64,000 nucleotides of DNA from Uloborus diversus (lineage: Eukaryota), in contig NC_072740.1 in assembly GCF_026930045.1 (NCBI RefSeq), positions 29,492,384 to 29,556,383 of the forward strand. Direction: 5' to 3'. A program made the position numbers and the translations under genes. Positions 10,676 through 59,639 of this stretch are shown here, one piece after another; positions within the stretch are counted from its first letter, which is position 1, and each line of letters opens with the position of its first letter. Under the pieces are notes generated by a model that saw only the letters and a list, made by a program, of their open reading frames with translations, ran no database searches and was not told the DNA's origin.

Positions 10676-11900
10676 AGACTGCTGTTGCCATGAGATTATA
10701 TAAAGTATTCTAGAATTATTTCTTCGAAAGTTTTTCCGTCTGCTATAGTTAATACATAAGTAACACTTATTAATAAAGCAATGTTGCTACATTTTGAGAT
10801 TAAATTTCAATACTTGATTTATATTAATGTTTGATATTGTCAAAACTTTTTTTTTTAAAGAATGGACAAGGCTTCAGATGCGTCCCCTAGAAAATATAGG
10901 GAAATAAAAGCATTAATACTTCCCTCCCTACATTTCTAGAAAGCTATTGCAAATTTAACAGGTGTTTCTAAGTCAGTAGCTGCATGAATCAAAAGCTTAA
11001 AATTGACCCAAACAAGTCACTGAAAGCAGATCGCGTAGGCAAATGTAACAAAAACATATCACTGCTCCTTGTACGGACTGTAGAATCAGGGATATATGCT
11101 TTTTCGGATATTTAACATTCTCTAAAAGATATTCTTGATAGAATAGCTCCCCCAGGTAGAGTTGCATGCCACCTGGGGGGGGGGGGCACTGTTGAAAGGA
11201 AATTTTTTGACCAAGAAGCTAAAAGTAGATTTGTCGGAGAAGCATGCCTATCGAAATAATAACATTATTTGTTAATAGCACTACTTACAAATAGCTCTTA
11301 CGTGATTCAAACCTCAACAGTCATTTTTTTGGTTGTTTTTCCCACTTTATAAGCTTTTTCTCAGCCTTGGTGTGGCGTGCGTTTTTTTACTCTTCTACCA
11401 ACTGGCTCCGGACAGTCCTGGTGGAAACTTCAATACCCTGTTCATTCATAAGTAAGACAGGCTACACTCCTTTTGCGATTTTTGAGTTAAATATTACTAT
11501 CTGTGGCCGGTACGAGTATTGATGATGTGTTTTCTGTCACGTTTTCCTAAGTGATCCACTTCCAAAGGCATATTTTGGGCAATTTTAATTTTGATATATC
11601 CAACTATTGTCCTAAAAACACCTATTATACTTGAAATAACTCTCTGGCTATGTGTGGAGGGAAGTAGCAATGCTTGTATTTCCCTACACTTTCTAGGAGA
11701 CATGTTTGAAGCCTTGTCCATTCTCAAAAAAAAAAAAAAAAAGTATTGACTATTAATTAACAATATAAATCAAACATTCAAATTTAATAGCAAACTGTAG
11801 TAACATTGCTTTATTAATAAGTGTTAATTACATATTAACTATAGCAGACACCAAAACTTTCGAAGAAATAATTCTAGAACCCAGTAAGCAAAATATCTTT
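10676..11900. repeat. large inverted duplication or foldback-like element: ~300-bp arms (about 10676-10985 and 11585-11900) around a ~600-bp spacer containing a G12 tract
   Basis: 10741 gctatagttaatacataagtaacacttattaataaagcaatgttgctacattttgag…aagaatggacaaggcttcagatgcgtcccctagaaaatatagggaaata… is the reverse complement of 11590-11850 (…tatttccctacactttctaggagacatgtttgaagccttgtccattctc…caaactgtagtaacattgctttattaataagtgttaattacatattaactatagcagac); minus-strand ORF 11497..11763 and plus-strand reading 10861-10950 mirror each other (MDKASNMSPRKCREIQAL… vs MDKASDASPRKYREIKAL…). Confidence 0.75.
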
Positions 11901-18333: not shown

Positions 18334-18349
18334 TATATATATATACACA

Positions 18350-22939: not shown

Positions 22940-23165
22940 TTCTGTCAGTTCTAACTGCCCTTTCACAGGGGTGCCCAATCCCCTGCATAAGGACGATGGT
23001 GCACTCCCTCAAATGCTGGGGAGTATCCCTGTCCCCCTGCCAGAAAATAAGATCAAAAACCCTGTCAAATTCAAATCAACCCACCTAAAAATTTTAAGGC
23101 TGCAGTATGCGCCATGAACCCCCCCCCCCTCTGGTGGGCTCCCCTGCCTTTCAACAGCCTGTTTA
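22940..23165. repeat. interspersed repeat with a C11 tract, in the chaoptin intron
   Basis: ggggtgcccaatcccctgcataaggacgatggtgcactccctc…ccatgaaccccccccccctctggtgggctcccctgcc resembles the reverse complement of 26215-26385. Confidence 0.5.
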
Positions 23166-26214: not shown

Positions 26215-26385
26215 CCCAATAAGGATAGGTCATGGTGCAGACTGCCGTATTCAACGTTTTAGAGGGTGGGTGTTTTCTGGGGTATTTTTCTTTTCTGGGG
26301 GGGGGGGGCTGACTCTGGAGGGGGGTGCACCATCAGTGCCCTTAGGGTCAGGGGCACCCATGGTTTTCTATTGTTCTTAGTTGCA
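26215..26385. repeat. interspersed repeat with a G12 tract, in the chaoptin intron (inverted relative to 22940-23165)
   Basis: …ttttctggggggggggggctgactctggaggggggtgcaccatcagtgcccttagggtcaggggcaccc; reverse-complement similarity to the 22960 copy. Confidence 0.5.
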
Positions 26386-29063: not shown

Positions 29064-30749
29064 CTGGAAAAAACAAAAAAGAAAGAAATGTTTAGCATTA
29101 GAGAATTCTGATACTAGTTTTTGAGTTTAGGGTGGTGGCAAGGGGGATTAAGGGTTACATCCCAGGTTCCTTGGTTTTAATCCACATTACCAACACTAGT
29201 ATACTATCTTTTATAAGTGTAACGACTCTTATGACCCCGCCCCCCATAAGGTAAATTCTAGCTGTGCAAGTATTTAAGTTTGCGAATCAGTAACAAGGCT
29301 TGACATGTAGCTGTATGTATATGACCTGGAGCCTGAGGGATTGCTAGCACAGGTAAAGGTGTTGGTCATGACCTGTCCTCTCTTAACACGACTAAACATA
29401 AAAATGCATTTTGGGAGCTTCAATTTCGAGAAATTACTGAGGGAGAGCCCTTGACCCCCTGGTGGCTGGATATTATACTTTTAACTCTCACTTCCAATGA
29501 GTATGCTCATATTTCAATAATGCCCCCCCCCCCAAAACCATAAACAGGATCTACTTTAGGGAGGGAGGTTTCATAACAATCTTTTCATGTGTATATACTT
29601 GTATACTAGACTAGGAAACATTTCGTGTTTCAAGCTACAGACCAACGGTTGACCCCAAAAACCCTTCTCTTGTTTCTCTTCTGCTCATCACTGGTTCACT
29701 AGTTTTCTACGCATCGACCAGTACAGTTAGCTCACATCCTTCACTCTTTGCAAAAAAAAAATGATATTGTTTTCAGAAAGAAAAAAAAAATCACTGTATT
29801 TTACTTTAAAATGTTAACACCAAGTGTGAGTGTTAAACTTTATAAATATGAATTAAATATTTATATTCAGAATGAACATCCTTTTAATTGTGTATTTGAG
29901 TGTTAAGGTTTTGCATGGAATTGCTTGTACCATTTAGAATAAAAATCTTCTTTTTCATATGTAATGGCGATTTATACTTTTCAATGGGTGTTAAAGACTG
30001 GTCATATGATTTTTGACCCTGAGCTTAACCTGAATTCGCTCATATTTTAGAATTCTAAACTTTTCCCACTGCTAAATTGCAATTCCAAAACACATGTATA
30101 GTGTAATACAATTTAATTTTAAGATGTAATGAACAAAAATGTCACCCTCTTAAAACATTAATGTTATTTAGATTATATTTTAAAAGTTTCTAATATATTT
30201 TATTCTAGTTAATCAAATGGTTAATCAGGGGCATTTAAAATTGATTTTAGCAATAGCTATCATCGATTAACATGCACTTAAACTCGTGTGTTAATACTTT
30301 CCTTATGTTATTATATCATCCATTTATTTGAAACGAAATTTAATTGTCGAAATTTTTTTTTTTGGCATGTATTCAAATGAAGAACAAAACATTTCCTAAC
30401 AGACTAATTTAAATTTTAAATCCCTCTTTTTATTGTAACACAGAAACCATAACCTAATTTCTTATAAGCAGTTGTATAAATTTGTTTATAGGCAATTAAA
30501 TTTATGTTCTCAGTTATTCACTAAAATAAATTGACATGTGGCCATACTTATCAGAATCTGCCTGGGGGAGGGCAAGCACGGATCACGTGCTGAAGTTAAA
30601 ATTTTAGTACAACTTTTAAATTTTGAGTAACTATTATTAAATTTTAAGTAAGATAGAGATTGTTTATGGAATTTTATAAAAAGTGATGAAATAATAGACT
30701 AGTGCATTCTAATTGCAATGTTTATTTTTTAAACTGTCATGTGTTCACC

Positions 30750-35989: not shown

Positions 35990-36100
35990 TAAACGTGGGC
36001 GGATACAGGATTTCATTTAGGGGGGGGGGTCATGCTCAAGAACGTAGTCTTAAGTACAAAAATGTTCTTCTACGAACCCCCCCCCCCCCGCAAAAACTCT
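35990..36100. repeat. homopolymer-bearing dispersed module (G10 … C12)
   Basis: gtgggcggatacaggatttcatttagggggggggtcatgctcaagaacg … cgaacccccccccccccgcaaaaactc; the GTGGGCGGATACA…G(n)TCATG core recurs at 37770-37930, 59385-59410 and elsewhere. Confidence 0.6.
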
Positions 36101-36660
36101 TCAAATATACAAACAAAAATCATTGAAAGCATAAACGCTCTTCAAATATGTTTACAAAAATAATTGAAATCATTGATAAAAATCATTTAAAAAGTTTTCT
36201 TTTAAAATATTTTTTCCGTTTTAGAATGTAAGCCGAAAGTTTTCGGAAACGACAACTCAAAGTTTTCGGAAATTTTGGATCAAAAACCCCTGGTTGATTA
36301 AATATTTTCATAATACTCGACACATATCCATCTTAGATTATAAATTTGCATGATACTCCACACATCCATCTTGTATGCAAAAATATAACATCACTTAAAA
36401 TAATACTAAAAAATGCGGCAAAAATCTAATTAAAAATTAAATATTCTAGAGGTATAATTCAGACTTGATAAATTACTCAACGACTGATCAATTCCAATTG
36501 TAGAAAATCGGAGATTGACGAAGACGTCGCAGTCTCAGAGTCTGATACAGGAGCTCCAGATATGTTTCCATCGGTTTTGGGTTCTTTAGTTTTTTCAACA
36601 GTCCAAAAAAAAAAAAAAAAAAGACTACACTGATTTGTCACCCGAACGCTTCATTGTTTT

Positions 36661-36846
36661 TGTAATAGATCAGGGGTTCCCAAAGTGGGTGCCGCGGCAC
36701 CCTGGGTTGCCGCAAGGAGGGGCGAGGGGTGTCGTGAGCTCTTCATATTTTCAATATGCGTGTATAATTGAAACAGATTAGGGTTCCGTGAAAAAATTGT
36801 AATTCGTCAAAGGGTGCTGTGAGTCGGAAAAAATTGGGAACCCCTG
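36661..36846. mobile_element. MITE (186 bp) with 13-bp perfect TIRs CAGGGGTTCCCAA…TTGGGAACCCCTG
   Basis: Termini are read directly; a GC-rich stem-forming interior (gccgcggcaccctgggttgccgc…); minus-strand ORF 36743..36949 overlaps it but is meaningless. Confidence 0.8.
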
Positions 36847-36848
36847 TT

Positions 36849-37102
36849 ATATGAGGCAGTGAGAAGCAAAGGGATGTAAGTGGCAAAATTAAAAATTTGG
36901 AGATAACCAGTATACATAGTAGGTGAACCTCTCCTCTGTCTTGGGGCAACAGTTGTTACTAGTATCCCTGGTAGTTGCTGCTATACAGCATGATTTAGAA
37001 AAAAATTCAATCAAAGCCCACCTAGGATGTTAACTTTAAAGGCCTTTTATTCAGAGCTTGAAAAAGTCCACTTACATCCCTTTGCTTCTCACTGTCTCAT
37101 AT
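36849..37102. mobile_element. second MITE (~254 bp) abutting the first, with ~35-bp TIRs ATATGAG(G/A)CAGTGAGAAGCAAAGGGATGTAAGTGG
   Basis: 36849 atatgaggcagtgagaagcaaagggatgtaagtggc vs 37066-37102 gtccacttacatccctttgcttctcactgtctcatat; the interior (36890-37030) recurs at 62225-62370. Confidence 0.75.
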
Positions 37103-37769
37103 GTAGTTCTTTCTAACATACGCGGGTTTTCAACAGGGTTTCCGTCTAATACGGTGGGCTAGTTTACAAGAACCTTTGTATAATGAGGTTTTGCGCTAAC
37201 ACGACACTCCAATTTTACATTTCTTGCGCGATACTAAATCCAAAACACTGATTTAAACTAATTAACTATTTACAGCACATTTAAAAATAAACTCAGCACG
37301 ACTAAAAACGAAACTATCTAAAAATTACAACAGAAATAAAATTATAATCTATAGAGACTTTACATAAAATAAAACATTTACACACTCAAATGTTTTATCG
37401 ATTGAAACGATGCCTGTAGCTTTGGATATGGTTTTACAATAATTATCGTTGATTAAATTTGTTGCATAAAAAGAGATCAGGCGTCAGACACTTCTTTGTT
37501 ACTTTTCATTATACTGGCTCCTGAACACAGCGCAGCAGACTAACTGTCTCAAGAAAAGCTATTTTACTGTCTACATATTTTAAATACATATACTATAAAT
37601 AGAAAAATGACGGTTAATACCAAAAGGAAAAAAATCGAAAACTATATACTTTTTCTTATTATGGTTTCGGTCCGACTTTTCGTTTTTTTTTTTTCAAGCA
37701 GTCATTTTCGCTACCCAAATGCAATGAACCTTAAAACATATTGCAAAGTTGTCGCAGATTTTGATGGGG

Positions 37770-37930
37770 GGGGGTCATGTTCCCCCCTCCTTGTATCCAC
37801 TTTTTACGATTTCGTTCAAGTTTTTTAAAAAATTTTTTGAGCAAACAGTCAAATACTGTTGCGGGTTTGGGGGGGGGGGGGCATGACCCCCCCTTGTATC
37901 CGCCACTGGTGTTCGGGGCAAGTTTACGCA
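37770..37930. repeat. two tandem copies of the poly-G module (GGGGGGG(T)CATG…CCCCCC…TTGTATCC(G)CCAC)
   Basis: gatgggggggggtcatgttcccccctccttgtatccac … gggtttgggggggggggggcatgacccccccttgtatccgccactggtgttcggggcaagtttacgc. Confidence 0.6.
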
Positions 37931-40900
37931 ACCGATCTCGTGTTACACTCCAAATTTGGTAGCAAAAAAAATGGGAGGAAGTGCTTTTGTTTTTCGAGGG
38001 GAAAAAAGAGGTTAAAAGCATTTAACGTTTCAAAAGCGCCCAAAAACGATATTGTTACAAATTCTGTAAATAGTAATTATTTTTATGATTAATTTGTTGT
38101 AATCTAGCTAAATTTGGCGTTTATTCCATTATCTTTCATCTGAAATTATCTTAGTAACGTAACCTGTAAATAGTTTCTTGTAATGTACATAAAACCCCCT
38201 AACATTCGACAGAAGTATACGGTTCCCCCATTTCTGAATGATAAGATTTGTGAATGGAACAAAAAGAAAATATGAGAAAGTTGTAGAATTTCGTCGAACT
38301 TTCCAAAGCAGCATAAAAAGCGTGCAGCATTTGAATGGGAGAGTTTTTTTTTTGCTTGTGAATCGTATCAGCTGTGCGCTGGAGAGTATGTATTGGCTCT
38401 GTTTTGTGAAGCCTTTGAGCTGTGTTTTTGCGTATTTGGATGTAAATACGTGTGCCATCGTTGAGTTTACGATGTTAATTGATATTTGCTTAGTTGCTGA
38501 TGATTGATTTAGCAGTTGTAACTACCTTATTTTCGAGCGTAAACGCTTTTGTGCTAATGAGTTTAAATGCTTAAAGCTTGCAGGTGTGGCGTATACAGCG
38601 GCAATGTTGCCATGCCACAAGGAAACGTGAAGGAAAAAAAAAAAAAAAACAGGGGGAAATCCTATTTCTTGAAAATCCTGAAATGGGCAGGAAATTTCCT
38701 TCCTTTTTTATTGAAGTTGCAAAAATCTATGCACAAATGCATAAACTTACCAAAACAATAATATATTCAATGATAATAATAATAAATAATTAAATAAAAT
38801 AAAAATCGGTAATTAACTTTAAATTTTTTTGTGTTTTTGTTGAAGTAGTGAAATATTAAAATGTCTATCATTTAGGCAAATATTATTTAATGCTTAACTT
38901 GACATGCACCTTGAATTTTATGCTAATTTAGTTTAGAGAGCTTGAGAATAGTCATCAATCATATGAACAGTAAACTGCCAACTATCCGCAAATGACTTTT
39001 TCGCAGTGTTTCACACTAAAAAAATAAAAATTTTAAAAAATAAATAAAATAAATAAAAATAAATAAATAAATAAATAAATAAAATTGGCGATGTTTAACT
39101 GAATATAGATAAATGCGTCCATTTTCACTTAAAAAGTGAAAAGCTGTTTCTAGATACTCCTATTTCTTTCTTTCTCTTCCCGTCCAATCAAGCGTACACT
39201 TCTTATTGCTTTAGATCGGCAGAAACTACACTGTTAAAACTACAGGTTGCATTTGGCACCTTTCAGGGGTGAAAAGCTTGTTCACCAGCGGTACTCTATA
39301 TGGTGCTGAAATTGCACCCTTAACACGAATGAAAAACTAATAACATCCTTAATCCAGCCTGCACCGCGCTGAAAAATGAAACCGTATGGCAGAACATTGG
39401 CACCTTTCTGTTTCCCGTTGCTGACCCCCCCCCCCCCCCCGTGTTGTGTGCATTTTTGGATACAATTGTGTAAATTATTATTTATTGTTTTGAGTTATAA
39501 AAAAGTCTTTGCTCATTTTCCACACTGAATAGCTCTGAAAATGATTAAAACTTGTAATTTAAGGCATTTGATCACATTTCAACTTTCCCAACATACTTTA
39601 GAAATGTTCATCACTTTAATTTGTCTGTTCGTGCACGAAATTTCGTACATCCACTTGGATTGCTCAGTAATTTTAATATGTTATTGACTTTTACTGCAGC
39701 ACGAAATGAAGAGCGTAGGTATTTGTAAATCATTTACAGGAACAACCATGAATATTCAATTGTATTGCAATCATGGAAAAATAAAATCGTTTCATAAACG
39801 TTCAAAATTTTAATCAAGAGTCGTACGTATATATGATTTGACATTTGAAAATCCGTATGGATGATAAATAAGCACGTTTTTTCAATGTGAAGTTTTTCGA
39901 CAGAGTAGAAGCCAAAACAAATTCTAACGATCACTGTTTCTAGAGTGACGAAAAAAGCTCAGTCATTCGCTTCATGCAATAACGCCAACGGAAGATAGTT
40001 AACTTCGACACGAGATAATAAATTTAAAAAAAAAAAAAAAAATTGAGACGTAGAAGGAACTTCTTTTTCACACACAACAACCTGCTTTTTTTTCGTGCTT
40101 TCTGTTTTGTTTATAAGCAGCACCGTTACAACTCCAGTTCACTTACTGATTGCATCACATTGCTAAAAATAAATCTCCTAGTTAAAAATCCCCAAGCAAG
40201 TAAAACCACGCATTCAAAATTAATGGTTGAATTAACTTTTCAAATATCATCTAATTTAAGAGTTATGTTCGAAAGCTTTAAAAGCTACACTATGATCAAA
40301 TGCCTGTACTTACGCGAAATTTTGAAGAGTAAATCGCAGGAACTTATGAGTTTTAATCCAATTTCGTACTTCATTCAATGGGAAAATGCATCTGCGTAGT
40401 TACTTCCTGCGTCCGCCATTGATTGTGGTTGAAGGATGTCAGAGAGCGCGTGCGCCAACGTTTCACCCTTGTTTTTAGGAGGTCTGTCTTCCCATTTATC
40501 AGCGTCATTCACCTTGATCACATTTCCTAGCCTCCATTGCACCCTGAAGCACCTTGTTTTGACCCCAGGGAGCCAAATAGCTGTCCAAAGGCACCCGTAG
40601 TTTTGACAGTGTATTATAAAAAGGATTTTTCTCGTCCAAATAGGCAACAGGATATTGCAAGTTGTAGTAAAAACTTTAATAATAAGTAATATTGGATCCT
40701 GTAGCATTTTATGCGATAGACATCAAGTCTATCATACTGGAGATTGAAAAAACGTTATTAGTAATGCGATCATAATCCTTTTTTAAGAGTCTGGAAATTA
40801 ACTATTAGAATATTTTTTAGTTTGTTTAGTACATTTTTTTCATTTTGGTTTAAATGAGCCTAAATTACAGGTTCATTCGTTATTCACTTTTCTCAGCAAT

Positions 40901-43060: not shown

Positions 43061-46000
43061 TTGGGACCGTTTAACTACTAAAGCCAAGCCCATACTATTT
43101 TATGTTTTTCTGAGTACAATACCACAGTGAATAGTTAATCCTGTACTGATTTTTGAGGGTCACTCACGACTTTAGCAGATATCCGGGCACAAACAAATAA
43201 CGGTTCAATTGACCTTTGCCCTCAAAACTATGAGTGGACCACCAAATTATTTATGCTAGCTTGTACCTATAACCAAGTAGTGTCCGTATTTAAAAAAAAC
43301 CGCTTGGTTCGCTCAGTGCTTTTGAAACAAAAACGATCATTTGTCTCGCGCCATATATTCACGACATTAAACTTTAACCTCTACTCAAAGAGAACAAATC
43401 ACATTAAAAAAAAAAAAAAAAAGAATAACTAAAGCTTTTTTCTTATCATAGTACTACTAACACATCGTGAACTTTTTACGAAAATCGAAGACATCATCTA
43501 TCACGAGATGTCAAAAAAGAAAAAAAAAAAAAACTCTTAAGCAGGGTTATTTGTACTTAATTATTTAAATTCAAGTGACTACATATTGTAACATTTACAA
43601 TGAGAGTTCATAAGTTTTAAAAGTATCCAATATGGCGATCGTTCGACATTTTGCATCCACCATGTTGAAATTTTCGTTTGCGATCCGAAATTCAGCGAAG
43701 TTCGTGGTTGCCGCATTAAGGTTCTGAAACTGCATAAAAAAATCATGTTTTTTTTTTCAAAAATCTTTAAAATGTTAAATTTGTTTAAATTGCATTCCAA
43801 TTTTCTTTACTATTAACTTCACTTTTAAATTGTGGATGCGGCGCATTTAGTAGATATTTTTATTTTTTTCATACATCTTTGCAATGCGGTACTTACAACG
43901 GGTGCGGCGCGTACTCCCAAAAATTGCGTACTAGAACTTTTGAATTAGTTTTAAAGACAAAATTATGTTCCGCCTGATATTTTATTGAAAACTAGAGGGC
44001 TCAGTCTCCTGCTCGCCAACGACAACAACCGTTCGTCGACTACGGCTGCTGCGTCTTGGCGATATTTTGCAGATTGGGCGACAGAACTAGGAATTTCTCG
44101 AAGTATCTGGCGACTTAATCGGCTATATATCTCCAAATTTAGAGCCAAACGGGATGATAGTTAATGATTTGAATGATTTAGTTTTTAATTAATATTTCTG
44201 GCGGGTAAGTTAAAGATTCGAGCGAAATGGTTACCTCAGAATGCCTTGTATCCTACGATGCCTGTATCGGCTGTCGAGACAATGATGGTCCGTAGGAAAT
44301 AGGGTTACAGACTCATATTAAGCGAACCTTTTAACCAAGGTAGTCATGTTTTATGTCTTATCAGATGAAATATGTTAATATGTCCTTACCATCCAGGACA
44401 AAAGCTATAAACACGTGGTTGGTAATGACAGGCTGAAGATAGAATTAAACTAAGTGCATTATTTCTAACGTTTTAGATGCTTTGTTTTTTGAAAAAAAAA
44501 TTTGGTATGGTGTCCCCCCCCCCCAAAAAAAAGCACCGTTGAGAAATATTATATATGATTACCATGCTTATTTTATTTTATTGTAGCACTGAAAAGTTCG
44601 ATTATCTTTAGATCACACTGCGTAAATAAAAATATAATACAATGCTTCAAAATGTGGCTACACTCTTTGGTTCCAAAAACTTTTAATTTGTACCAGGCCA
44701 CAGTGGAAGAGCTGAAGGGGGGGAGACCGCTGAAGAGTTCATACAAAACAAATAAGAAGAAAACTCTCAAAACTTTATTTTTTCTAGAAAAAAAACGTAC
44801 GATTTTCCTCTGAATATCGTAAGTTTTGCGAAATTCCCCACCCCTGTCCCCTTCCAGCACCATCAAAATTAGTCTAAACTTTTGTTTTCGGTACATCAAT
44901 GTCAAAACAATTCCGGGGGTGATCCCCCAAACCCCTTTTCCTCATTAAAGTTTGTCGGAAATTGCGTAATTGGAAATTTAATTTCAATAAATTGCTGGGA
45001 TGAATCCCTGGCCCTGGGCACTATTCCTATCTCTAATATTACTGAAAATGGCACACAATCGTGTTTTACAGGCTGCAAATTTTGGAAAACTTCTTAGGGT
45101 ACTGAGCTTCCCCCTCTCTAGCATCACGAAGATAAGTCTGGAGTGAAGTGTTTACAGCTACAATTCAGAAAAGTTTCCTGGCGAGAATCCCAGCCCCCCC
45201 CCCCTTCTCTTTTGTAAAGAATATTATTCTTATGACTACGTTCATATTGATAATTTCGATCCTCTGCCATGCATACATAAACATAAGCAAAAAGTGATGT
45301 AAGCAAAAGTTAACTTTATTGCAATTGTGAAAATGACTCTATACTAATCACAGTAATAAAAAAAACGAACCGTTCTCACTTACGATTTCAAAAATTATAC
45401 ATTCCCGATCTTAAATTTGCTTACAACATTTTATTTTTACGTTTTTCAAAATGTATATTTGAAACTTTCCCACCGTTGAATTAAATAAAACCCTTCAAAA
45501 CATGCCCGGTTTTTTTGAGATTTCCGGATTTCGGAAGTTCGGATTTTCGAGTTCGTACTATGTATGTAATACAAACATGTATTCTAAGTGAAAAAAATGT
45601 AGTATCCGCCGAATCCCCCCCCCCCCAAAAAAAATAAGCAGCATCGGCCACTGCCATCCCAAATGTATTTGGTTGTTCCTTATAGAAAATTTTGTCTACT
45701 CAATTTCATGTCGCATGTTTTTTGCACACATAATTTTTCTCTCTAGCAGACATCCGTTGCTAAATGTGTTAGTGTTCATTTTCAATTCCTGCTTTGAGCT
45801 CAGATTGACTTATTGCTGATTATTTTTTTAATCTCTATTATTTTACGAAAGTTTTTACTTGTATAAATTGAATAAAGAAGGTTAGTATTTTATGCTATAC
45901 GTTCCTTGTGCTTTATACTTAGAGTAATATAGAGAAAAAATGAGATTCCATATAATAAATGTTCTTTCTTTGCACTTGATTTTCTCACTTAAAGATTCAA

Positions 46001-48290: not shown

Positions 48291-51289
48291 AAAATATCAC
48301 AAAGCCGATGGTATAGGGTTGTCATAGCAAACGTAGTCCAATCATAGGCTATCGCTATTCGAAGTTTCAATAATTGAAACTTCGCGCCCCGCGACTCTTT
48401 TCCAAAAATTTTCGCTCTGCAGGCAATGAGTTGGCGTTGGAAAAAAAAATCATTACTCAGGGAAAACTCGCGTTGTAGCCATTTCGCGTAAGTCGGATCG
48501 CGTTGTAGCGCGATCCGACTGTATTTTACAAACTAGAAACACGATATTTTCCCAAAATCACCATAATTAATGACAATATCGCCTGTAATTACCTTGGTTG
48601 AGAGGGACTCGGAAAATAAAGAGTAATTTATGATATAGAAAATAAGAGTAAATAGAGTACCCTTGTAAATGATAGCAAATTAACATATTAGACATTTTTC
48701 TTAAAGATTCGTTTGTATTGTATTCACAATTACCCCACTATAGAAACCGTGAAAATATTTTACCTATTAGTGCAAAAACAAATCTATTGTTTAAAGGCAT
48801 TAACTCATATGGACCAAGATCATGGACCACCTTACCCAACTGTTTAAAAACCATAAATAGCAGAAATTTGTTTAAGAAAAGGCTTAAAAATTTTATACTC
48901 AATTCTACTGCAATTAATTTAGGAAAAAGTAGCGTATTTGTAATAGTATACCTTGATTTTGTTATAAATTTCGACTTATTTTTTTGCATTACTTGTGTTG
49001 TGTTTATGTGTTCTTTGTATGATTATGCATATAAACTGGTCTTAAATTAAGTTTTACTTTTCTGAGTGGTGGGAGCTAGTCAGGCTATTGTTATAGCCTT
49101 TACTTCCACCTACTCAATCAGGGATTTTCAAATAGACAGAGTGAATTATACTTCTGTTAGTAATTTATTTCCTGTTATTCTCATCTGTGAAATGCATTTT
49201 TTGTAAAAAATACTACCCTGATCGAAAAAAAGAAAAAATGAATATATACCAATAATAAAGAAGATATCACTAGTAAATTTTCAAAATATAAAGAGTGATT
49301 CTTACCTTGATAAATTAAATTTTCGAATATAGAATCCAAATGTACTCCACATCTGTCGTGCGGGAGAATTTCCCCTCTTCTTGCTTCTGGTGTTTCTGAG
49401 GATTAACTGAAACGGTCCTAATAGGCTTAGAATATTTTCCAGATATTATTCGTGCTGAGGTGTGCTTTTATATAAGCTTTTGAAACTGTGGTGCTTCAAA
49501 AGGGGAAAAGAAAGCCCACAAGTTCTTGGGCCTATTTCGATATCGTCAGAATCGTTTCGTAAACAGATGTAATATTAATCGATGAGTCACATAAGTACTC
49601 GATGATTTGGGGGGGGGGGACTTGTTCGCATTGCATTTAGTTTTTTTTTCTGTAATTCAAAGTAAATTTTAAAATATGCTGGAATACATACCCTTTTCCT
49701 GAAAACTGGCTAGTTTTATTAATGATGTATGAAGCTTTTATCGTAATTTTCCGAAATGTTTAATGTGTTGAAACTTAACCTAGTATTTTTTAAAAAATTG
49801 TGTCATTTTCCTGAGAAAATGAAAATTTTCCAAAAAAAAAAAAAAAAAAACGAAATAGCATTTTTTTTCACACTCTCTCTTTCTTTTTTCTTTGTTGTTG
49901 TAAAAATAAAAATTCATACTTGCTTGAAGCTTGTATAGTGCCCACAAAATGTAGTGCATTTCAATACAAATCGAGTTTTTAGGAAACTTAAGAATTAATA
50001 AATATAAGTTTAAAATTCATACTTACTTGATTCTGGTGTAGTGCCTGCAAAGTGTAGTGCATTTAAATAGAAATTGAGTTTTAAAGAAATTTAAGAATTC
50101 TTTCAAAGCACGATTTAAAATCTCCGAAAATGTTGTTTTTTAACGTTACAAAATTCAAGTGTTGGGCACATTAGTTAAATTTTTAGTTGATTGAATGAAT
50201 TTGACCAATTTTTTGGTGAAACTAATCGATTGATTCGTGCTTAAATTAATCTGCGTTGGGCACATTAGTCTTTTGTTTAGTTGCTTAAATTAATCTGGCT
50301 AACTTTAACTTGGATTCATTTCAACTAGACGAAATTCAGTTCATTTATTTCTGATTTTTCTTTTAAGTAGCTATTGAATCAATTCAAAATAACCCTTTTT
50401 CACTCGTATTTATGTAGCATTGTTATTTTTCCTCAACCGTCATTAAATTTGAGCAAACTTTTCATCAGTTGGGAATTATTTTTAAATACTCATTCATTCA
50501 TATGTTCATTTATTAATTGTTTTACTTACTTATTCACGGCACTCACTCATCATTCACTCATTAACTTATTCATTCATTATTTTTTTCTCTTGCATTTATT
50601 CACTCACTCAAGTCTGGATCTATAAATTTTGGGCCCCCAGCAAAAAATCACCAGGGCCCCTAACCACCCATTGGATTCTCCCCCCTCCCCAACGAGGGAT
50701 TCTTGTTCGTTTTTAATTACTTCAATATTTCTACCTTAATTTTGAATTCATTTGTTTAAATATTTTTATTTCTTTATTATTACATTCGATTTTTTTTAAG
50801 GTTTTGAGTAGTTATGTGGGGCTTTTTATCCATATTTTTGGATAATCATTCTGTTTATGAGTAATAGTACCGTAAAATCGTCCAACTATGCGCCATTTTT
50901 CGCTGTTTTCAATGAAAATTCCGTGTACATCTTTGATTTAGAAATTTGAGGACTTTAGCAATGGTAGCTATGCATCTCATCTTTCAAATGAAATGTTAAA
51001 AAAAATCTAAGTTGGAAAGAAGAGGAAGGGGAATTTTTCCCCCGTGGCCGATAGTTGTACCCCTACGGGGTACAACTAATGCACAGTGGTGCAACAGTGG
51101 CCCATTGTTGCTCCCTTGGCACAAAGTTGTACCAATGGGAGCAACAAAGTTTATGGTAGCAAGTAATCAATGGAGCCAAAATTTCTCAGGACGTTTCTCA
51201 GTATTCTAATTTTATTCAATCTTTCAATTCGATTTAAGTTTAAAAAAAAAAGAAAAACCAAAACTGTTCTCCTCTGCATATCTGGGTTT

Positions 51290-51760: not shown

Positions 51761-52829
51761 TAGTGTAAATGTATTTCAGAAATAGTCTGAAGTTACCATC
51801 ACGAAACTTCACCTTATTTTTTCATAAAAATGCTTCATACTAAAAAAAAAAAAAACGCCTAAACTAAGCGGTTGGCACTAAAAATTTGTCCTTGTTCCTC
51901 TCTGGAATTCATTTGTATGCTAATTTAATTATAACCATTTAAATATAAACGGTTTCTCAAACTAATTTATATTTCACAACATACATACAAGTTGCTTAGT
52001 TTCAAAATCTATTATTGGCATAGGTGATTCTCCTCACTTCCTGGTTAAGTTTGCCCCTACTATGGAACAATGACGGGGAATAAACTTGATGTATGCTTGA
52101 TGCAGAGAAGCCTTCATTCAACATTCTCATAACAATTACTATTAATATTACTGTTATATGGTAACAAACTTTGGCAACAATGGGTTTTTATTGGGGGGGG
52201 GGGCAGGATCTACGAAGCGGAAACTAGAGAAACGTTTCCTTTCAAAAATCCTAGATGATGTCTCAGATGACTGTGTAATTGATGCCACAACTAAACCACC
52301 CTATCAAAGACGGTTCAGTAAATGACCAAAAATGTAAATTATCATTGCCAGAGAAATATTTGCACAAAACTATTCCAAAATACCTTGAGTCTGAGCCACT
52401 GCCGGATCTGGGGTAAGCCAGTCCGAACCCTTACTTCGAGTGGCAAATTCAATTGTATCGATAAGAGCCCAAGCGTGGAGCCAAAAGGATGTCATAACCT
52501 CCTTAAAAGACCAAAGAAAGCTTAAAACTTCACTTTTCGATCTTTTGATCTGCACAATTTTTGAGAGAAAACTCCGATTAATCCACGAATAACTTTAAAA
52601 ATGCATTTTTATAGAGAATATATTTCTAAAACATTTCCAGAACAGAGTCGGTTTTCTGCTCTCCTTCTCCCAACTTGGTCCCCCGACTCCTTAACGTCAC
52701 CAGTGACTTCAATTTTAAAAAAAAATTCGAGAGAAAAATCACTGCTCCCTGTCTTTCACCTACGTTACCAAAAAAAAAATTTTTTTTTTGAACTTTGACA
52801 TCTTGAATTCAAATAATGTTTTTCGCAAT

Positions 52830-52975: not shown

Positions 52976-55139
52976 CGCTAGAGGAGCAGCATCGTGAGGC
53001 GGCCAGCCGACCGTGATGCTGCAGAGGGAGGCGGGGGGGAACATAAAATCATAGGAATTCAAAACTATCAAGTGAGAACAATAAGCAATCGTGATTGCTC
53101 AAAAAAAGGCTAAAATGCGATTTTTTACGGTAGTTTTGGAGTTTCCTCAAGGACCGTCTCTTTTTTTAATCACCGTAATTTATAGTAAAATCTGTACTGG
53201 AGCTTTTCATTTAACTAAAGAAAAAGCGAGTGTTTGGCGTATTGTAGCTATGTTATTGCTACGTAATTTAAAATTGTTATTTATGTAACGATAAAAATAT
53301 TTTTTCAGAAAATTTGATCCGGACGAACGAGGTGCCGGATCAACGAGATTCTACTGTAATTTCAAAAACAGAATACGTTTCATGTATCCTTGATGAACAT
53401 AATTTCTAAAAAAGTTCCCCTCCCAAATCCATCGTCTGGATTCCCACTGTTTAAATTTAATGATTTAACAGGGAAATCGCATGAAATTGACTGTTTTTTA
53501 CCCATAACTTTTCTTCGAAAGTTTTCCTGTAGAGCGTTGCGTTTTTAAAAGTTTCAATCTCCAAAAATGGACGAGGGAAGGCTCCCTGAACCTTTTTCCC
53601 TTAACATTACCAAAGATAATCTAAAATTCATTTTTAAAAACTAAAATTTCAAAAAATTCTCAAGGGAGAAACCCCCGAACCCCCATTCTTGAGTGAATAT
53701 TATGCTTACAATTAGGTTCATATTTCTAATTATCAGTTTAGTTTTGACTCACTGACTCCATTTAAAAAATCCCCCTTTGAAAAATACAGATGCCACCAAT
53801 GTCCTACACTCAGTTAATTATGTCTCCTCGCCACCCTGTACCCCTTGGGGGTTATGTAAACCCCCAAGCTCCCTGGTATAGTGGTACCCCTATTACTGAA
53901 GCTCTGCGCACGCCTCTGATGCTTAGATATCTATTTTTTGAATCAAATGTTATTCCTCTATTAACCGTCGTTAATTTTTAAGTGCTTTCAGTGGTGGATC
54001 CAACGAGGAGGCTAAGGGGGCTATAGCTTTCTCCCCCCCCCCTTTGATTTAGTGCAATGCCATAGAGTAAAATTGGATAAGTGTAACTTACCTAAAAAGA
54101 CGCACGTCAGCTACATTTTATTTTCTTATATTGACATCAAATTTCTATTTTCGTAGATAAAAATGATAGTTAGACAGTAATATTAATGTCTTGTACGATT
54201 TGAAATTTGTCAAGATTTAAGTTCTCGTTCAAAATTTTTAAAACCTAAAACTTGCCGTAAATGTTATACATCATATCTTACACTGATGCAGGTAGAGAGA
54301 GCACGTATTTAAGTTTTGTTGCTTTAGACAGAGTATTCCTTAGAAGGCATCAAAACTTTAATTTAGAGGGATACAATCGTCGTGAGAGGTGGGAATGGGT
54401 CCACTGACTACATTACAGTCATTATTTTAAGGTATGTAAAACATTAAAAACGGAAGTAGGTGGACGTGAAGTTATTGAACGAACTATTTAAAAACCGTCA
54501 ATTAAACTGCGCTATAGAGAAAAAGTATGCGTGTGCATTTTGTTCACTATCCGTGTTAGATTTTGTTTTTTAATTATTTGTAGGCCGTGAAATTTTTTGA
54601 AAAATAAATGTCTTGTTTGTACTTACAACTGTATACAAACTTCCAATAATTTTCGATTGTTTACAATAGCAGTTATCGAACTTAGCTTTTTAATTGGAAT
54701 GCAGCTTTTTTTCAACTTATTTCACGATGAAGAAAAAACTTCATATTGTGGAGTAATATTCCATCATGCCTTTAAATAGTAATCTCTGTGTGTCAAAAGT
54801 TGCATCATACCCGCTAACAGATTTATAATTATTGCAAGTCGGCGAAGATGCTTCATCAGGTGTATTATTACTCGAGCATTAAGGTAATATAAAATTTCAA
54901 ATGAAGATATTTGTTTAGATAAAAAACGTAGCAATTTTTTGAAGTTTGAAACAGTTTAAATTTAAATTAACATTTATTCGCATTTTTTCCAAACTTAAAA
55001 CTCCAACCCTCCCAAACTGTATGAATTCCGGCGAGTTATATTTCCGTGTGGTTTTGCAGTTAAAAAAGGTGCACAACCTTTAATTTTAGCACACATTGGC
55101 AATCCTAGTATGGTAGTTTATGTGTATGTAAGAAACGTC

Positions 55140-58330: not shown

Positions 58331-59639
58331 TCCATATTTTTCCAACATTTGGCTCCCATATCTTTAATACTGTCCTTTCCCTGTCCATTTTTTTCTATTT
58401 TGCATATTTTTTTCCCATTCATTTTTATCTATCTTGCTTTGTTTTTAACCTTTTTTGTCTTAGTTGACATCCCCCTCCCTTTTTCTTCTATTTATCTTTA
58501 TTTTTTTTCCTTTTTCCGAATATTTTTGTTTCTGTTTATTTTATTTCCTGTTTTTTTTTTCTTCTTCTTCCATTCAGCTTTTCCTTTCTTGCGGTTCACG
58601 GTTATTGAGATTTTCTTTTTGTTTAAGCTTTGGCTTAATATTTGTCCAATTGAATTCTTTCTTCCTGGGTTTACTGTACCTCAGAGAAAGCTCTTAGCCT
58701 TTGCTTCTTTTCCTATTGGTTCCTTATCGGTTTATAATTTTCTCATTGGGTGTTTGGCTAATCCGCTATTTTTATCTTTTAAGCTGCATGCTTATCTGCT
58801 CTTGGCTTTAGTCGGATGTCTTTTCATCCATAAGCTCATTACTTTTTGCATTGAAAAAGGCGTTCCCTGTGATGCCGAAACACGTGTCTGCTGTTATTGG
58901 ATATTTGTGCTTTTTTGACGTTGTTTTTTTCTTACTTTACTGTTCAGCACAAAGGTATTTATTTATCAGATTACAATGTGATTTACAATACCATGGGAAG
59001 GCTTGGAGGAAATAGCTTCGTCCTGATGCTATCAAGGTTTTTTAATCTGAAGTTATCACTTTCAAATTCACACAGTTATATATTTTACTTCTTTCTGAGG
59101 CTAACGGGGCTATAGCCCTCCCCCCTCCCAATGAGATCAGAACTTGCTCTGGATAAAACCGCATTTTCGGAGTTTTTAAATACTACAAAGAGGGCTTAAA
59201 ACTGTTTTTAGACCTCTAATTTTGGAATTTAAAAAAAAAAAAAAAAAATCGTATTTAAAATCCTAAATTTTATGGGAGACCGACCCCCCCCCCCCACCGA
59301 GATTGAGAGTATCAGCAAAAATGACAATAAAGACCCTCTAAAACAGTGACTCCCCACTTGGAGTTGGACCGAGGTTAGCCCCCCCCCCCTGCTCAAGTTC
59401 TAGATCCGCCACTGAGTTTTTTTTATATAAATTGAGATGCAATACATGACTTCAATCTTTTGTTCATGTTCAAGTTTTGTTTTCATTCTTCAAAATTTTA
59501 GAATTGGTGTGACTTTTATTAAGGTAATTGGCACCGCATGAGCGAAATCTCGGTTCTTCGGGGGAACGGGATGTACACCAGCTCCCGCCGCTGGCGGGTT
59601 GCATGAGCCGCCGTAGGTGACGAGATCAAGGAGGCCACT

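What the first reader, a model, noticed from the sequence alone, without database searches (positions are those of the whole stretch)
35990..37930. Recurrent dispersed module carrying 10-16-nt poly-G/poly-C homopolymers in an otherwise AT-rich genome
At least 18 homopolymer G or C runs of 10 nt or more occur in 64 kb: 8957 G16, 11176 G12, 23119 C11, 26297 G12, 29524 C11, 36022 G10, 36085 C12, 37775 G9, 37868 G14, 39423 C15, 44512 C12, 45195 C11, 45617 C11, 49610 G9, 52190 G11, 54045 C10, 59285 C12 and 59385 C10. Many of them share flanking sequence, for example GGGGGGG(T)CATG…CCCCCC…TTGTATCCGCCACTGG (37770-37930, twice), its reverse form GTGGGCGGATACAGG…GGGGGGGGGGTCATG (35995), …CCCCCCCCCCTGCTCAAGTTCTAGATCCGCCACTGAG (59385), GGATCCAACGAGG…CTATAGC…CCCCCCCCCCC (53997, 59100), and GCAAGTTTACGC at 35620 and 37920. 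This indicates an abundant repeat family, not yet characterised here, whose consensus contains a long homopolymer. That is unusual for TEs and potentially mutagenic through slippage. The tracts could also act as G-rich structure-forming sites.
Basis: seen in the sequence. Interest (0 to 1): 0.5.

Follow-up and report, generated by a model that had tools for sequence, protein, structure and literature searches.

The report
Poly-G/C tracts carried by hAT transposon ends
The long runs of G or C scattered through this AT-rich arachnid (spider-like) genome are real, and about half sit in decayed copies of a known, widespread kind of cut-and-paste transposon (hAT, 'Pegasus-like' MITEs), so the finding is mostly ordinary.

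Summary
All 18 tracts exist (offsets up to 12 nt). This is about 30 times more than extrapolation from shorter runs predicts. The window is arachnid DNA: its chaoptin exon is 66% identical to Stegodyphus.

The shared flanks are not one long repeat. They are the ends of hAT-superfamily elements. In 120 or more metagenome contigs the motif CAGTGGCGGATYYA begins where similarity between loci starts. It is followed by G-run, short word, G-run, palindromic core, C-run. The other end is C-run, 8-20 nt, TTCTGGATCCGCCACTG. Fourteen elements have perfect 8-bp target-site duplications, and four loci carry a hAT transposase domain.

Silkworm MITEs with the same terminal repeat and 8-bp duplications were called 'Pegasus-like' in 2010.

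In the window I assign 8 tracts to such ends, three of them on weak or manual evidence. Two more lie in a five-copy repeat that shares an internal motif with these elements. Two lie in a small unclassified repeat and six are unassigned.

The palindromic core varies between subfamilies but stays self-complementary. That suggests a selected cis-element, which I did not find described in the papers I could search.

Verdict: a new member of a known kind, of modest interest.

The parts
35994..36089 (+). Degenerate G-run-type end 'A': CGTGGGCGGATACA, 12 nt, G10, TCATG, 42-nt insert, C13.
   Evidence: Sequence. It folds as a DNA hairpin, -17 kcal/mol, z -3.4. The CM did not detect it and the right-end HMM hit is only E 0.55, so the assignment is manual.
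37755..37802 (-). Degenerate micro-element 'B2'. On the - strand: AAGTGGATACAAGGAGG, G6, AACATGA, C9.
   Evidence: CM R1 E 0.13 (+) and 0.17 (-). It is a 106-nt-spaced duplicate of B1 (family D3).
37856..37908 (-). 53-bp micro-element 'B1'. On the - strand: CAGTGGCGGATACAA, G7, TCATG, C13, AAACCCGCAACAG. Both ends look like terminal repeats, as in the 62-bp element of L078. No target-site duplication is recognisable.
   Evidence: CM R1 E 3.4e-8 (-) and 5.9e-5 (+); sequence.
53989..54042 (+). G-run-type (5') end: CAGTGGTGGATCCA, ACGAGGAGG, CTAA, G5, CTATAG, CTTTCT, C10.
   Evidence: CM R1 E 5.8e-7. It has the same architecture as the metagenome termini. With 59414 it forms the only correctly oriented pair of good ends, flanked by AGTGCTTT / AGTTTTTT, 6 of 8 identical.
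59097..59130 (+). Hairpin fragment without a terminal repeat: GAGGCTAACGGGGCTATAGCCCTCCCCCCTCCC. It is a paralogue of 54011-54042.
   Evidence: CM R1 E 0.036; self-BLAST 54008-54047 against 59097-59134, 82.5% identity.
59284..59295 (+). C12 inside the about 320-bp MITE remnant 59097-59414.
   Evidence: It lies between the hairpin fragment and the right end. The assignment rests on position only.
59378..59414 (+). Right (3') end: C11, TGCTCAAGT, TCTAGATCCGCCACTG.
   Evidence: Right-end HMM built from 17 elements validated by target-site duplications, E 3.2e-6; terminal repeat with 0 mismatches.
45590..45653 (-). Degenerate end. On the - strand: CAGTGGCCGATGCTGCTTA, T8, G12, ATTCGGCGGATAC. It contains two copies of the terminal-repeat core.
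   Evidence: CM only E 4.4, so the assignment is weak.
53330..53448 (+). About 118-bp decayed MITE without a long homopolymer: AGGTGCCGGATCAACGAG ... CCCCTCCCAAATCCATCGTCTGGATTCCCACTG.
   Evidence: left end, 4 mismatches; right-end HMM E 0.012.
44694..44730 (+). Possible decayed G-run end: CAGTGGAAGAGCTGAA, G7, AGACC. It lies upstream of tandem family-X fragments.
   Evidence: CM E 0.49. Weak.
29347..29601 (+). Family X copy carrying C11 at 29523, followed by AAAACCATAAACAGGATCTAC, which resembles a right end.
   Evidence: Alignment A2; nhmmer E 1e-56. The paralogue at 6233 reads ATCTCTTCTCC where this copy has C11.
6038..6288 (+). Family X copy in which the homopolymer position reads ATCTCTTCTCC.
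8596..8828 (-). Family X copy with two 7-nt runs (8635, 8749). It contains GAAAAATTTCTGGTGGGGGGGAGCCCCATAACCC.
   Evidence: The motif resembles TTCTGGGGGAG..CCCCCAGACCCC inside the MITEs of L041 and L066, which have perfect target-site duplications, and in L072, L089 and L102. A related motif lies downstream of the hAT ORF in L125.
45088..45256 (+). Family X copy carrying C11 at 45194 (TTTCCTGGCGAGAATCCCAG, C11). Partial tandem copies lie at 44844-45099.
53570..53772 (+). Family X copy without a long run (GGGAGAAACCCCCGAACCCCC).
22980..23129 (+). Family Y copy ending in CATGAA followed by C11.
   Evidence: Local alignment to 26230-26354(-): score 40 against a shuffle maximum of 24. Transposon class unknown.
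26230..26354 (-). Family Y copy. Its G12 (26297) aligns with the interrupted CCCTGTCCCCCTGCC of the other copy.
8962..8976 (+). G15, unassigned. Followed by the hairpin TCAGCATT..AATGCTG.
   Evidence: Its similarity to 39425 is confined to the run plus TCAGCA and is not significant.
39425..39440 (+). C16, unassigned.
11175..11186 (+). G12, unassigned. It lies at the centre of a large inverted-repeat structure (10432-13689).
44514..44524 (+). C11 followed by A8. It resembles the C12 A8 of 45615 but has no recognisable terminal repeat.
   Evidence: 44494-44532 against 45591-45634, 77% identity.
49609..49619 (+). G11, unassigned.
52193..52203 (+). G11 followed by CAGGATCTAC, a 10-mer shared with the 3' part of the family X copy at 29548. 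Unassigned.
   Evidence: A terminal-repeat-like CACTGCCGGATC lies at 52397.

Best explanation
The recurrent module is the subterminal region of non-autonomous hAT-superfamily DNA transposons of the 'Pegasus-like' type.

Shown:
- The element begins with the terminal inverted repeat CAGTGGCGGAT(C/T)(C/T)A.
- Immediately inside one end lies G-run, 3-5-nt word, G-run, palindromic core, C-run. In all four loci that carry a transposase ORF, this is the end upstream of the ORF.
- The other end reads C-run, 8-20 nt, TTCTGGATCCGCC(A/C)CTG.
- The homopolymers are therefore part of the element's own sequence.

Inferred:
- The tracts were spread through the genome by cut-and-paste transposition and MITE amplification.
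- After insertion the runs change length by replication slippage and decay by point substitution. This would explain why paralogous copies have a pure run in one copy and an interrupted C/T-rich stretch in the other.

In this window I assign 8 of the 18 tracts to such ends: 36020, 36077, 37766, 37869, 45615, 54033, 59284 and 59379. The model support differs:
- CM or HMM support at E below 1e-5: 37869, 54033 and 59379.
- Weak CM support: 37766 (E 0.13-0.17).
- No significant CM support, so assigned mainly on the sequence motif: 45615 (E 4.4).
- By eye only: 36020 and 36077.
- By position only: 59284.

Two more tracts (29523, 45194) lie in a five-copy repeat (family X) that shares an internal motif with these elements. 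Family X has no demonstrated ends. The remaining eight tracts lie in another small repeat (family Y) or in unclassified sequence. They are most simply explained as other transposon-borne G/C-rich patches expanded by slippage.

Most likely role of the G-run/palindrome/C-run (inferred): a cis-acting element of the 5' end, recognised either as a hairpin or cruciform, or as a set of direct and inverted transposase-binding sites, during assembly of the transposition complex.
For: Element terminus. In every locus the sequence upstream of CAGTGG is unrelated and the architecture downstream is the same.

Target-site duplications. Of 33 inverted pairs of ends, 14 have perfect 8-bp duplications and 21 have at most 2 mismatches. 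Element sizes run from 62 bp to 4.9 kb.

Transposase.
- L121 is a complete 4,938-bp element whose ORFs carry Pfam Dimer_Tnp_hAT.
- L101 and L124 are internally deleted copies with the same domain just inside the G-run end.
- L126 is a distant relative with DUF4371, a FAM200/ZBED5-like domain and Dimer_Tnp_hAT, and the same end architecture.
- L121, L124 and L126 were found through the protein, not the DNA pattern.

Literature. Silkworm BmMITE-14 and BmMITE-16 have the terminal repeats CAGTGGCGGATTA and CAGTGGCGGATTT with 8-bp duplications and were classed 'Pegasus-like' (PMC2997013). Pegasus is listed among hAT elements (PMC1131882).

Window. A covariance model of the 5' end finds 37908-37874 (E 3.4e-8), 53989-54040 (5.8e-7), 37856-37893 (5.9e-5), 59414-59399 (0.005) and 59099-59122 (0.036). 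The right-end HMM finds 59378-59414 (3.2e-6).

Decay or expansion. C11 at 29523 corresponds to ATCTCTTCTCC at 6233. G12 at 26297 corresponds to CCCTGTCCCCCTGCC near 23070.

Constraint on the palindrome. Among 60 termini (33 distinct sequences), 89% of cells are paired against 76.5% in shuffles. The covariation score is 0.317 against 0.069 ± 0.019 (0 of 500 shuffles reach it), and slid controls reach at most 0.076. One pair shows GC 10, AU 7, UA 7, CG 6, plus 3 wobble pairs (GU 2, UG 1), and is never unpaired.
Against: - No window copy has a clean 8-bp target-site duplication. The best is 6 of 8, for the pair 53989/59414.
- tblastn found no transposase remnant in the window.
- Eight of 18 tracts have no demonstrable hAT context. 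The link between family X and hAT rests on a short shared motif and a right-end-like sequence, not on defined ends.
- The metagenome sample was selected for G7 and C7, so it cannot show how universal the runs are in this clade. Only the four protein-associated loci are unbiased, and their runs are shorter (5-7 nt).
- The proposed function of the palindrome is inferred from covariation only.
- Folding of the window copies is not better than composition-matched shuffles, except for copy A.
Confidence: 0.78

Rival explanations
1. The tracts are ordinary mononucleotide microsatellites. They arise in place by replication slippage wherever a short G/C patch exists, in a lineage with a slippage or repair bias that favours G/C-run expansion. 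Their association with transposons is incidental.
For: - Six tracts have no repeat context and two lie in an unclassified repeat.
- The length distribution is bimodal, with nothing at 8 nt and a mode at 11-12 nt, as expected if runs above a threshold expand.
- Paralogous copies differ between a pure and an interrupted run.
- Two other spiders have almost no such tracts at the orthologous locus, so the effect is lineage-specific.
Against: - Four of the 5 terminal-repeat motif hits lie within 50 nt of a tract, although those flanks cover about 3% of the window.
- Tracts occupy the positions where the family has G/C runs in unrelated hosts.
- Slippage explains tract length, not tract location.
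- The two explanations are complementary rather than exclusive.
Confidence: 0.35
2. The tracts, or their lengths, are sequencing or assembly artefacts, for example homopolymer miscalling or polishing errors in a long-read assembly, or two-colour-chemistry poly-G.
For: The narrow length mode at 11-12 nt and the absence of 8-nt runs could reflect base-caller or polisher behaviour. No reads are available to check this.
Against: - G and C runs are equally frequent (9 and 9) and lie inside continuous sequence without N.
- Many runs are paired as G-run, palindrome, C-run, in the same arrangement as independent metagenome assemblies from other projects.
- A/T runs show a smooth length distribution.
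Confidence: 0.07
3. The G-run/palindrome/C-run is not a DNA-level transposition signal. It is a promoter or a 5'-UTR RNA hairpin of the transposase gene, carried along passively in MITEs.
For: - It lies only at the end upstream of, and on the same strand as, the transposase ORF in 4 of 4 loci.
- Compensatory covariation, including a few G-U type pairs, is what an RNA stem would show.
Against: - MITEs as short as 53-62 bp keep the module, although they encode nothing (L078; window 37856-37908).
- The module starts within 3-6 nt of the terminal repeat, which leaves little room for a promoter upstream of it.
- The extra direct copy of 'G-run + word' (15 of 41 unique combinations against 3.0 in shuffles) is not explained by a single stem.
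Confidence: 0.2
4. The module belongs to a rolling-circle (Helitron or Helentron) element or a SINE whose GC-rich hairpin lies near one terminus.
For: G-run/C-run hairpins near an element end superficially resemble Helitron 3' hairpins. This resemblance comes from my own knowledge. Poly-A tracts are also abundant in the window.
Against: - The elements have terminal inverted repeats and 8-bp target-site duplications.
- They carry hAT transposase domains.
- There are no tRNA or Rfam hits in the window.
Confidence: 0.02

Closest known systems
'Pegasus-like' MITEs of Bombyx mori (BmMITE-13 to -16; Han et al. 2010, PMC2997013)
   Same: Terminal repeats CAAGGGCGGATCCAG, CAGTGGCGGATTA, CAGTGGCGTACCTA and CAGTGGCGGATTT. 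The first 11 nt of BmMITE-14 and -16 are identical to the ends found here. They have 8-bp target-site duplications of any sequence, sizes of about 260-430 bp, and no coding capacity.
   Different: Different host (a lepidopteran rather than an arachnid). The paper's table and the passages I read (searches for the motif and for 'Pegasus' only) give terminal repeat, duplication and size, and do not mention a homopolymer/palindrome module. The window copies are older, truncated and lack clean duplications.
Pegasus of Anopheles gambiae (GenBank U47019), listed among hAT transposons by Kapitonov & Jurka 2005 (PMC1131882). From my own knowledge, RepeatMasker has a class DNA/hAT-Pegasus; the label appears in PMC8730325.
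   Same: hAT superfamily, 8-bp target-site duplications, 5' terminus with G at position 3.
   Different: I could not obtain the Pegasus sequence, so direct similarity of ends or internal sequence was not tested. The name comes from the silkworm paper's classification.
Subterminal transposase-binding repeats of well-studied hAT elements (Ac/Ds AAACGG hexamers; Hermes GTGGC repeats). This is established knowledge and was not re-read here.
   Same: Short motifs repeated in direct and inverted orientation just inside the terminal repeat, differing between the two ends. GTGGC is contained in the terminal repeat found here.
   Different: Here the repeated unit is 'G-run + 3-nt word' arranged direct, direct, inverted, so that it forms a perfect palindrome. 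The word changes between subfamilies while self-complementarity is kept.
Dispersed poly-G/poly-C tracts of Caenorhabditis (Zhao, O'Neil & Rose 2007, PMC2211496)
   Same: G/C homopolymers are strongly over-represented in an AT-rich animal genome, dispersed, on both strands, and their positions are not conserved between related species.
   Different: That survey counted tracts of 18-32 nt, at 3-6 per Mb. Here the tracts are 9-16 nt, at about 280 per Mb in this one window. The passages I read do not mention transposons, whereas about half of the tracts here are traceable to transposon ends.

Membership tests
hAT superfamily of DNA transposons | 8-bp target-site duplication flanking the element | tested here: met
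   Related loci: 14 perfect duplications and 21 with at most 2 mismatches among 33 inverted pairs of ends. Window: only 6 of 8 identical for the pair 53989/59414, and none for the other copies.
hAT superfamily of DNA transposons | Short terminal inverted repeats beginning YARNG, with G at position 3 | tested here: met
   CAGTGGCGGAT... at one end and ...ATCCGCCACTG at the other. Window ends: 37908(-), 53989(+), 59414. The G-at-position-3 criterion is from PMC1131882.
hAT superfamily of DNA transposons | Encodes a transposase with the hAT C-terminal dimerisation domain | tested here: met
   PF05699 in L101 (E 4.6e-10) and L121 (E 1.1e-8), and in L124 and L126 from the precomputed Pfam hits. In L121 and L126 the ORF lies between the two ends. 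In L101 and L124 only the G-run end is in the locus, and the ORF lies just inside it. None in the window (tblastn): the window copies are non-autonomous.
Pegasus-like MITEs (as classed in PMC2997013) | Terminal repeat of the CAGTGGCGGAT type plus an 8-bp duplication of any sequence | tested here: met
   The 11-nt terminal core is identical to BmMITE-14 and -16, and the duplications are as above.
Pegasus-like MITEs (as classed in PMC2997013) | Sequence similarity to Anopheles gambiae Pegasus (U47019) itself | not testable with these tools
MITE (miniature inverted-repeat element) | Small (under about 800 bp), non-coding, with terminal repeats, target-site duplications and multiple copies | tested here: inconclusive
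   Met for the related loci (62-400 bp). In the window the copies are fragments: 53 bp (37856-37908), about 118 bp (53330-53448) and about 320 bp (59097-59414), without clean duplications. Copy number in the genome is unknown.
Caenorhabditis-type free G/C tracts | Homopolymers of 18 nt or more (the cut-off used in PMC2211496) | tested here: not met
   The longest tract is 16 nt. About half lie in transposon modules.
Helitron/Helentron | No terminal inverted repeats, no target-site duplication, 5'-TC and CTRR-3' termini with a 3' hairpin | tested here: not met
   Terminal repeats and 8-bp duplications are present in the related loci.

The most novel reading that the evidence does not exclude
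The 'G-run, word, G-run, palindrome, C-run' block just inside the 5' terminal repeat is a functional element that depends on structure (hairpin or cruciform, or alternative hairpins). It would be required for transposition of a hAT clade spread across many, presumably eukaryotic, hosts. It would be kept by compensatory change across more than 10 different cores: ATGCAT, CCATGG, CGATCG, CGGCCG, CACGTG, CCCGGG, TTGCAA, TGCACGTGCA, CATG, CTATAG and others. To my knowledge no such structured DNA signal has been described for hAT ends. As a side effect it would seed slippage-prone and possibly fork-stalling G/C homopolymers throughout host genomes.
Probability: 0.3. Interest if true: 0.55.

Novelty: new member of a known kind. 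Interest (0 to 1): 0.33.

Why it matters
For annotation: about half of the G/C homopolymers in this genome region can be masked and explained as hAT/MITE remnants. They need not be treated as mysterious or as assembly errors, and they flag positions where homopolymer length calls should be checked.

For biology:
- A transposon family that carries 7-25-nt G and C runs in its ends is a ready source of slippage-prone, polymerase-stalling sequence near genes. One family X copy starts about 280 bp upstream of the start codon of the chaoptin exon.
- The covarying palindrome offers a concrete, testable candidate for a structured cis-signal in hAT transposition.

Tried and rejected
- Self-BLAST of the window at two sensitivities: tract flanks do not form one long family.
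- Alignment of the two longest tracts, 8962 and 39425, which share 'G-run + TCAGCA': score 68 against a shuffle maximum of 77, so this is chance.
- SINE/tRNA-derived hypothesis: no tRNA and no Rfam family in the window.
- Viral contig scan for the module: 0 hits.
- BLAST of the window against the 120 metagenome loci: only low-complexity hits. Similarity between hosts is confined to the terminal modules, so model-based searches were needed.
- tblastn of hAT transposase fragments against the window: nothing.
- ORF scans of the 2.9-3.2-kb elements in L035 and L099: no transposase, so these are non-autonomous.
- Alignment of the regions upstream of family X copies: no common 5' end could be defined.
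- Treating 35994-37908 (the finding's own coordinates) as one element bounded by inverted ends: both ends are of the 'G-run' type and there is no target-site duplication, so this is not supported.
- Literature searches for the terminal-repeat sequence: only primers, apart from the silkworm MITE paper.
- DNA folding of the window modules: not better than shuffles that keep the runs, except copy A. The structural argument therefore rests on covariation, not on energy.
Full report
**1. What the window is**

The window is 64 kb with 33% G+C and many A/T runs. An 881-codon open exon at 26418-29063(-) encodes chaoptin. It is 66% identical to Stegodyphus dumicola chaoptin and 64% to Nephila pilipes, against 35% or less for insects. 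This is therefore nuclear DNA of an arachnid, most likely a spider not close to any species in the protein collection. Other transposons are visible:
- a Penelope-like reverse transcriptase with a GIY-YIG motif at 57228-58104;
- a MITE with Tc1-like ends at 16832-18337;
- a 176-bp MITE with ends like hAT-Charlie elements at 36671-36846.

**2. The observation**

An order-0 model expects 0.01 G/C runs of 9 nt or more. The counts for lengths 4 to 8 are 127, 46, 13, 5 and 0. For lengths 9 to 16 they are 1, 2, 7, 4, 2, 0, 1 and 1. Extrapolating the decline of the short runs gives about 0.5 runs of 9 nt or more, against 18 observed, so the distribution is bimodal. A/T runs decline smoothly.

The chaoptin neighbourhoods of Stegodyphus (30 kb) and Nephila (29 kb) contain 1 and 0 such tracts. 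The excess is therefore specific to this lineage or this assembly.

**3. Do the flanks align?**

They do not align as one long repeat. Self-BLAST finds almost nothing around the tracts, and the two longest tracts share only 'G-run + TCAGCA', which is not significant.

A short motif is shared, however. CAGTGGCGGATC with up to 2 mismatches occurs 5 times against 1.08 expected, and 4 of the 5 lie within 50 nt of a tract. GGCGGAT is 26-fold enriched in tract flanks.

Orienting the copies by this motif shows a common order: motif, G-run, a short palindromic word (TCATG or CTATAG), C-run.

**4. What the module is**

In every locus the sequence upstream of CAGTGG is unrelated to the others, and the sequence downstream follows one plan:
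- CAGTGGCGGAT(C/T)(C/T)A;
- a G-run of 7-25 nt;
- a 3-5-nt word;
- a second G-run of 3-7 nt;
- a core that is a perfect palindrome in 48 of 120 loci (chance for a 6-mer is 1 in 64);
- a C-run of 7-15 nt.

CAGTGG is therefore an element terminus.

Searching the same loci for the inverted motif gave 33 candidate pairs. Fourteen have perfect 8-bp direct repeats immediately outside, and 21 have at most 2 mismatches. Element lengths run from 62 bp to 4.9 kb.

The other end has its own consensus: a C-run of 6-10 nt, then 8-20 nt, then TTCTGGATCCGCC(A/C)CTG.

L101 has the G-run end followed 300 bp later, on the same strand, by an ORF with the hAT dimerisation domain (PF05699, E 4.6e-10). Homologues of that ORF led to three loci found through protein, not through the DNA pattern:
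- L121 is a complete 4,938-bp element with both ends, flanking TTTACATA / TGTACATG, and degenerate transposase ORFs carrying PF05699.
- L124 is an internally deleted copy.
- L126 is a distant relative, 35% identical in protein, with DUF4371, a FAM200/ZBED5-like domain and Dimer_Tnp_hAT. Its 5' end reads CAGTAGCGTATCCAGGGGG TTGATTT GGGTGTTCAAACACCCCCCC.

In all four loci the G-run end lies upstream of the transposase on the same strand.

Terminal repeats beginning CAG, 8-bp target-site duplications and this transposase domain together define the hAT superfamily.

**5. Is it known?**

Yes, as a kind. Han et al. 2010 (PMC2997013) list four silkworm MITE families with terminal repeats CAAGGGCGGATCCAG, CAGTGGCGGATTA, CAGTGGCGTACCTA and CAGTGGCGGATTT. 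All have 8-bp duplications of any sequence, and the authors class them as 'Pegasus-like' after the Anopheles gambiae element.

Kapitonov & Jurka 2005 (PMC1131882) list Pegasus among hAT transposons. They note that the third nucleotide of hAT 5' termini is always G.

I found no description of the homopolymer/palindrome block in the searchable literature. Repbase and Dfam consensus sequences, which I cannot read here, would show it.

**6. Mapping back to the window**

A covariance model of the 5' end (23 termini, 6 base pairs), run without filters, finds the following:

| Position | Strand | E-value | Note |
|---|---|---|---|
| 37908-37874 | - | 3.4e-8 | copy B1 |
| 53989-54040 | + | 5.8e-7 | 5' end |
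| 37856-37893 | + | 5.9e-5 | opposite strand of B1 |
| 59414-59399 | - | 0.005 | terminal repeat only |
| 59099-59122 | + | 0.036 | hairpin only |
| 37755-37802 | both | 0.13-0.17 | weak |
| 44701-44730 | + | 0.49 | weak |

The region 37856-37908 is thus a 53-bp micro-element like the 62-bp one in L078.

An HMM of 17 validated right ends finds 59378-59414 (E 3.2e-6) and 53414-53448 (E 0.012). The site at 59414 is therefore a right end whose C11 is the family's right-end C-run.

The sites 53989 (left end) and 59414 (right end) form the only correctly oriented pair of good ends. They are flanked by AGTGCTTT / AGTTTTTT, 6 of 8 identical, for which I estimate a chance probability of about 0.008. 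This may be one 5.4-kb element swollen by nested insertions, or two separate remnants.

Copy A (35994-36089) has a decayed terminal repeat and a 42-nt insert in the palindrome. I assigned it by eye.

No transposase remnant exists in the window.

**7. Other tract-bearing repeats**

Five copies of a repeat I call family X align over about 150-250 nt: 6038-6288, 8596-8828(-), 29347-29601, 45088-45256 and 53570-53772, with nhmmer E from 1e-29 to 1e-56. Family X contains AATTTCGAAAAATTTCTGG-GGGGGAG-CCCC..ACCCC. This resembles TTCTGGGGGAG..CCCCCAGACCCC in five metagenome loci (L041, L066, L072, L089, L102). In L041 and L066 it lies inside MITEs with perfect target-site duplications. A related motif lies downstream of the hAT ORF in L125. 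The 3' part of family X (C11, AAAACCATAAA, CAGGATCTAC) resembles a right end.

Family X carries the C11 at 29523 and the C11 at 45194. Where copy 29523 has C11, copy 6233 has ATCTCTTCTCC.

A second small family, Y, links 22980-23129 and 26230-26354(-) (score 40 against a shuffle maximum of 24). The G12 of one copy aligns with CCCTGTCCCCCTGCC in the other.

Runs therefore interconvert with interrupted G/C-rich stretches after insertion, by slippage, by substitution, or by both.

Six tracts remain unassigned: 8962, 11175, 39425, 44514, 49609 and 52193.

**8. Constraint on the palindrome**

For the 60 termini with a 6-nt core, I cut out G5, core, C5 and counted pairs.
- 89% of cells are paired, against 76.5 ± 1.5% in shuffles.
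- The covariation score is 0.317 against 0.069 ± 0.019, reached by 0 of 500 shuffles.
- Slid controls reach at most 0.076.
- The second core pair shows GC 10, AU 7, UA 7 and CG 6, plus 3 wobble pairs (GU 2, UG 1), and is never unpaired among 33 distinct sequences.

The search pattern required the two runs but not the palindrome, so this result is not caused by how the loci were selected.

In addition, the word after the first G-run repeats the first three bases of the core in 15 of 41 unique combinations, against 3.0 in shuffles (maximum 11). The unit 'G-run + word' thus occurs in the order direct, direct, inverted. A single hairpin does not explain the extra direct copy. Co-evolving transposase-binding sites or alternative hairpins would.

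**9. Mechanism**

Shown: the module is the end of a hAT element, and homopolymers are built into both subterminal regions.

Inferred from established hAT biology: copies were dispersed by cut-and-paste transposition catalysed in trans, and short non-autonomous derivatives multiplied.

Inferred from the paralogue comparisons: tract lengths drift by slippage and decay by substitution.

Inferred from the covariation and from the consistent position at the 5' end: the block is a selected cis-element. It most likely acts in recognition of the end or in assembly of the transposition complex. The rival is a promoter or 5'-UTR hairpin.

**10. Verdict**

The homopolymers do belong to repeat consensus sequences, but the repeats are several, the main one is a known hAT type, and such ends are common. 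About half of the tracts are explained with reasonable confidence, and the rest are unresolved. Interest is modest. The conserved, covarying palindrome is the only part that might be new.

Noticed in passing
window 24537-29063 (-): Chaoptin gene. An 881-codon single exon (26418-29063) and a further LRR exon (24537-25343). It is 66% identical to Stegodyphus dumicola chaoptin, which identifies the window as arachnid DNA. A G12 tract (26297) lies about 120 bp downstream of the large exon's stop codon, in the gap before the next LRR ORF. A family X copy with C11 (29523) starts about 280 bp upstream of the exon's start codon.
   Followed up: partly
window, whole: G/C run lengths are bimodal: 13 of 6 nt, 5 of 7 nt, 0 of 8 nt, then 1, 2, 7, 4, 2, 0, 1, 1 for 9-16 nt. 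A/T runs decline smoothly. This could be a slippage threshold, a transposon consensus length, or homopolymer compression by a base-caller or polisher.
   Followed up: partly
window 35270-35303, 35642-35658, 37914-37930, and reverse complement at 35986-36002: The motif CGGGGCA(A/C)GTTTACGCA occurs 4-5 times. It lies immediately outside both inverted hAT ends at 35994 and 37908. This could be a target preference or part of a larger composite repeat. Unexplained.
   Followed up: no
window 57228-58104 (+): Remnant of a Penelope-like retroelement: a reverse transcriptase motif (YVRYVDD) followed by a GIY-YIG-like motif (CGIYGINCSC...YID) in adjacent ORFs. It lies inside the candidate composite 53989-59414, next to a 1-kb tandem duplication (55126-56039 and 56042-57112, 67% identity).
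   Followed up: no
window 16754-18345: A perfect (TA)37 array abuts a 1.5-kb element with Tc1-like ends: CAGTGCTGGTAAAAAAAATTGCATCACCC and its inverse, 98% complementary.
   Followed up: no
window 36671-36846 and 36849-37102; 62229-62445: A 176-bp MITE with 13-bp ends CAGGGGTTCCCAA (like hAT-Charlie elements). It is directly abutted by a 254-bp foldback MITE with 35-nt arms that are 97% complementary. That MITE has a 74% identical copy at 62229-62445. Both lie between the two inverted Pegasus-like ends of the finding.
   Followed up: partly
window 10432-13689 and 51291-51750: Large nested inverted-repeat structures (arms of 127-155 nt, 80-83% complementary) with a G12 near the centre of the first. 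The second is a 460-bp near-palindrome flanked by A19.
   Followed up: no
L126 3648-9089: This distant relative of the family is flanked by GATGC on both sides, a 5-bp rather than 8-bp repeat. It has a pogo-like DDE_1 gene inserted on the opposite strand.
   Followed up: no
L035, L041, L045, L046, L066, L070, L072, L078, L090, L098, L099, L102, L120: The 13 perfect 8-bp target-site duplications I read show neither nnnTAnnn nor nTnnnnAn, the target consensus patterns I recall for the Buster and Ac groups of hAT elements. T at position 3 occurs in 8 of 13. I counted these by eye, without statistics.
   Followed up: no
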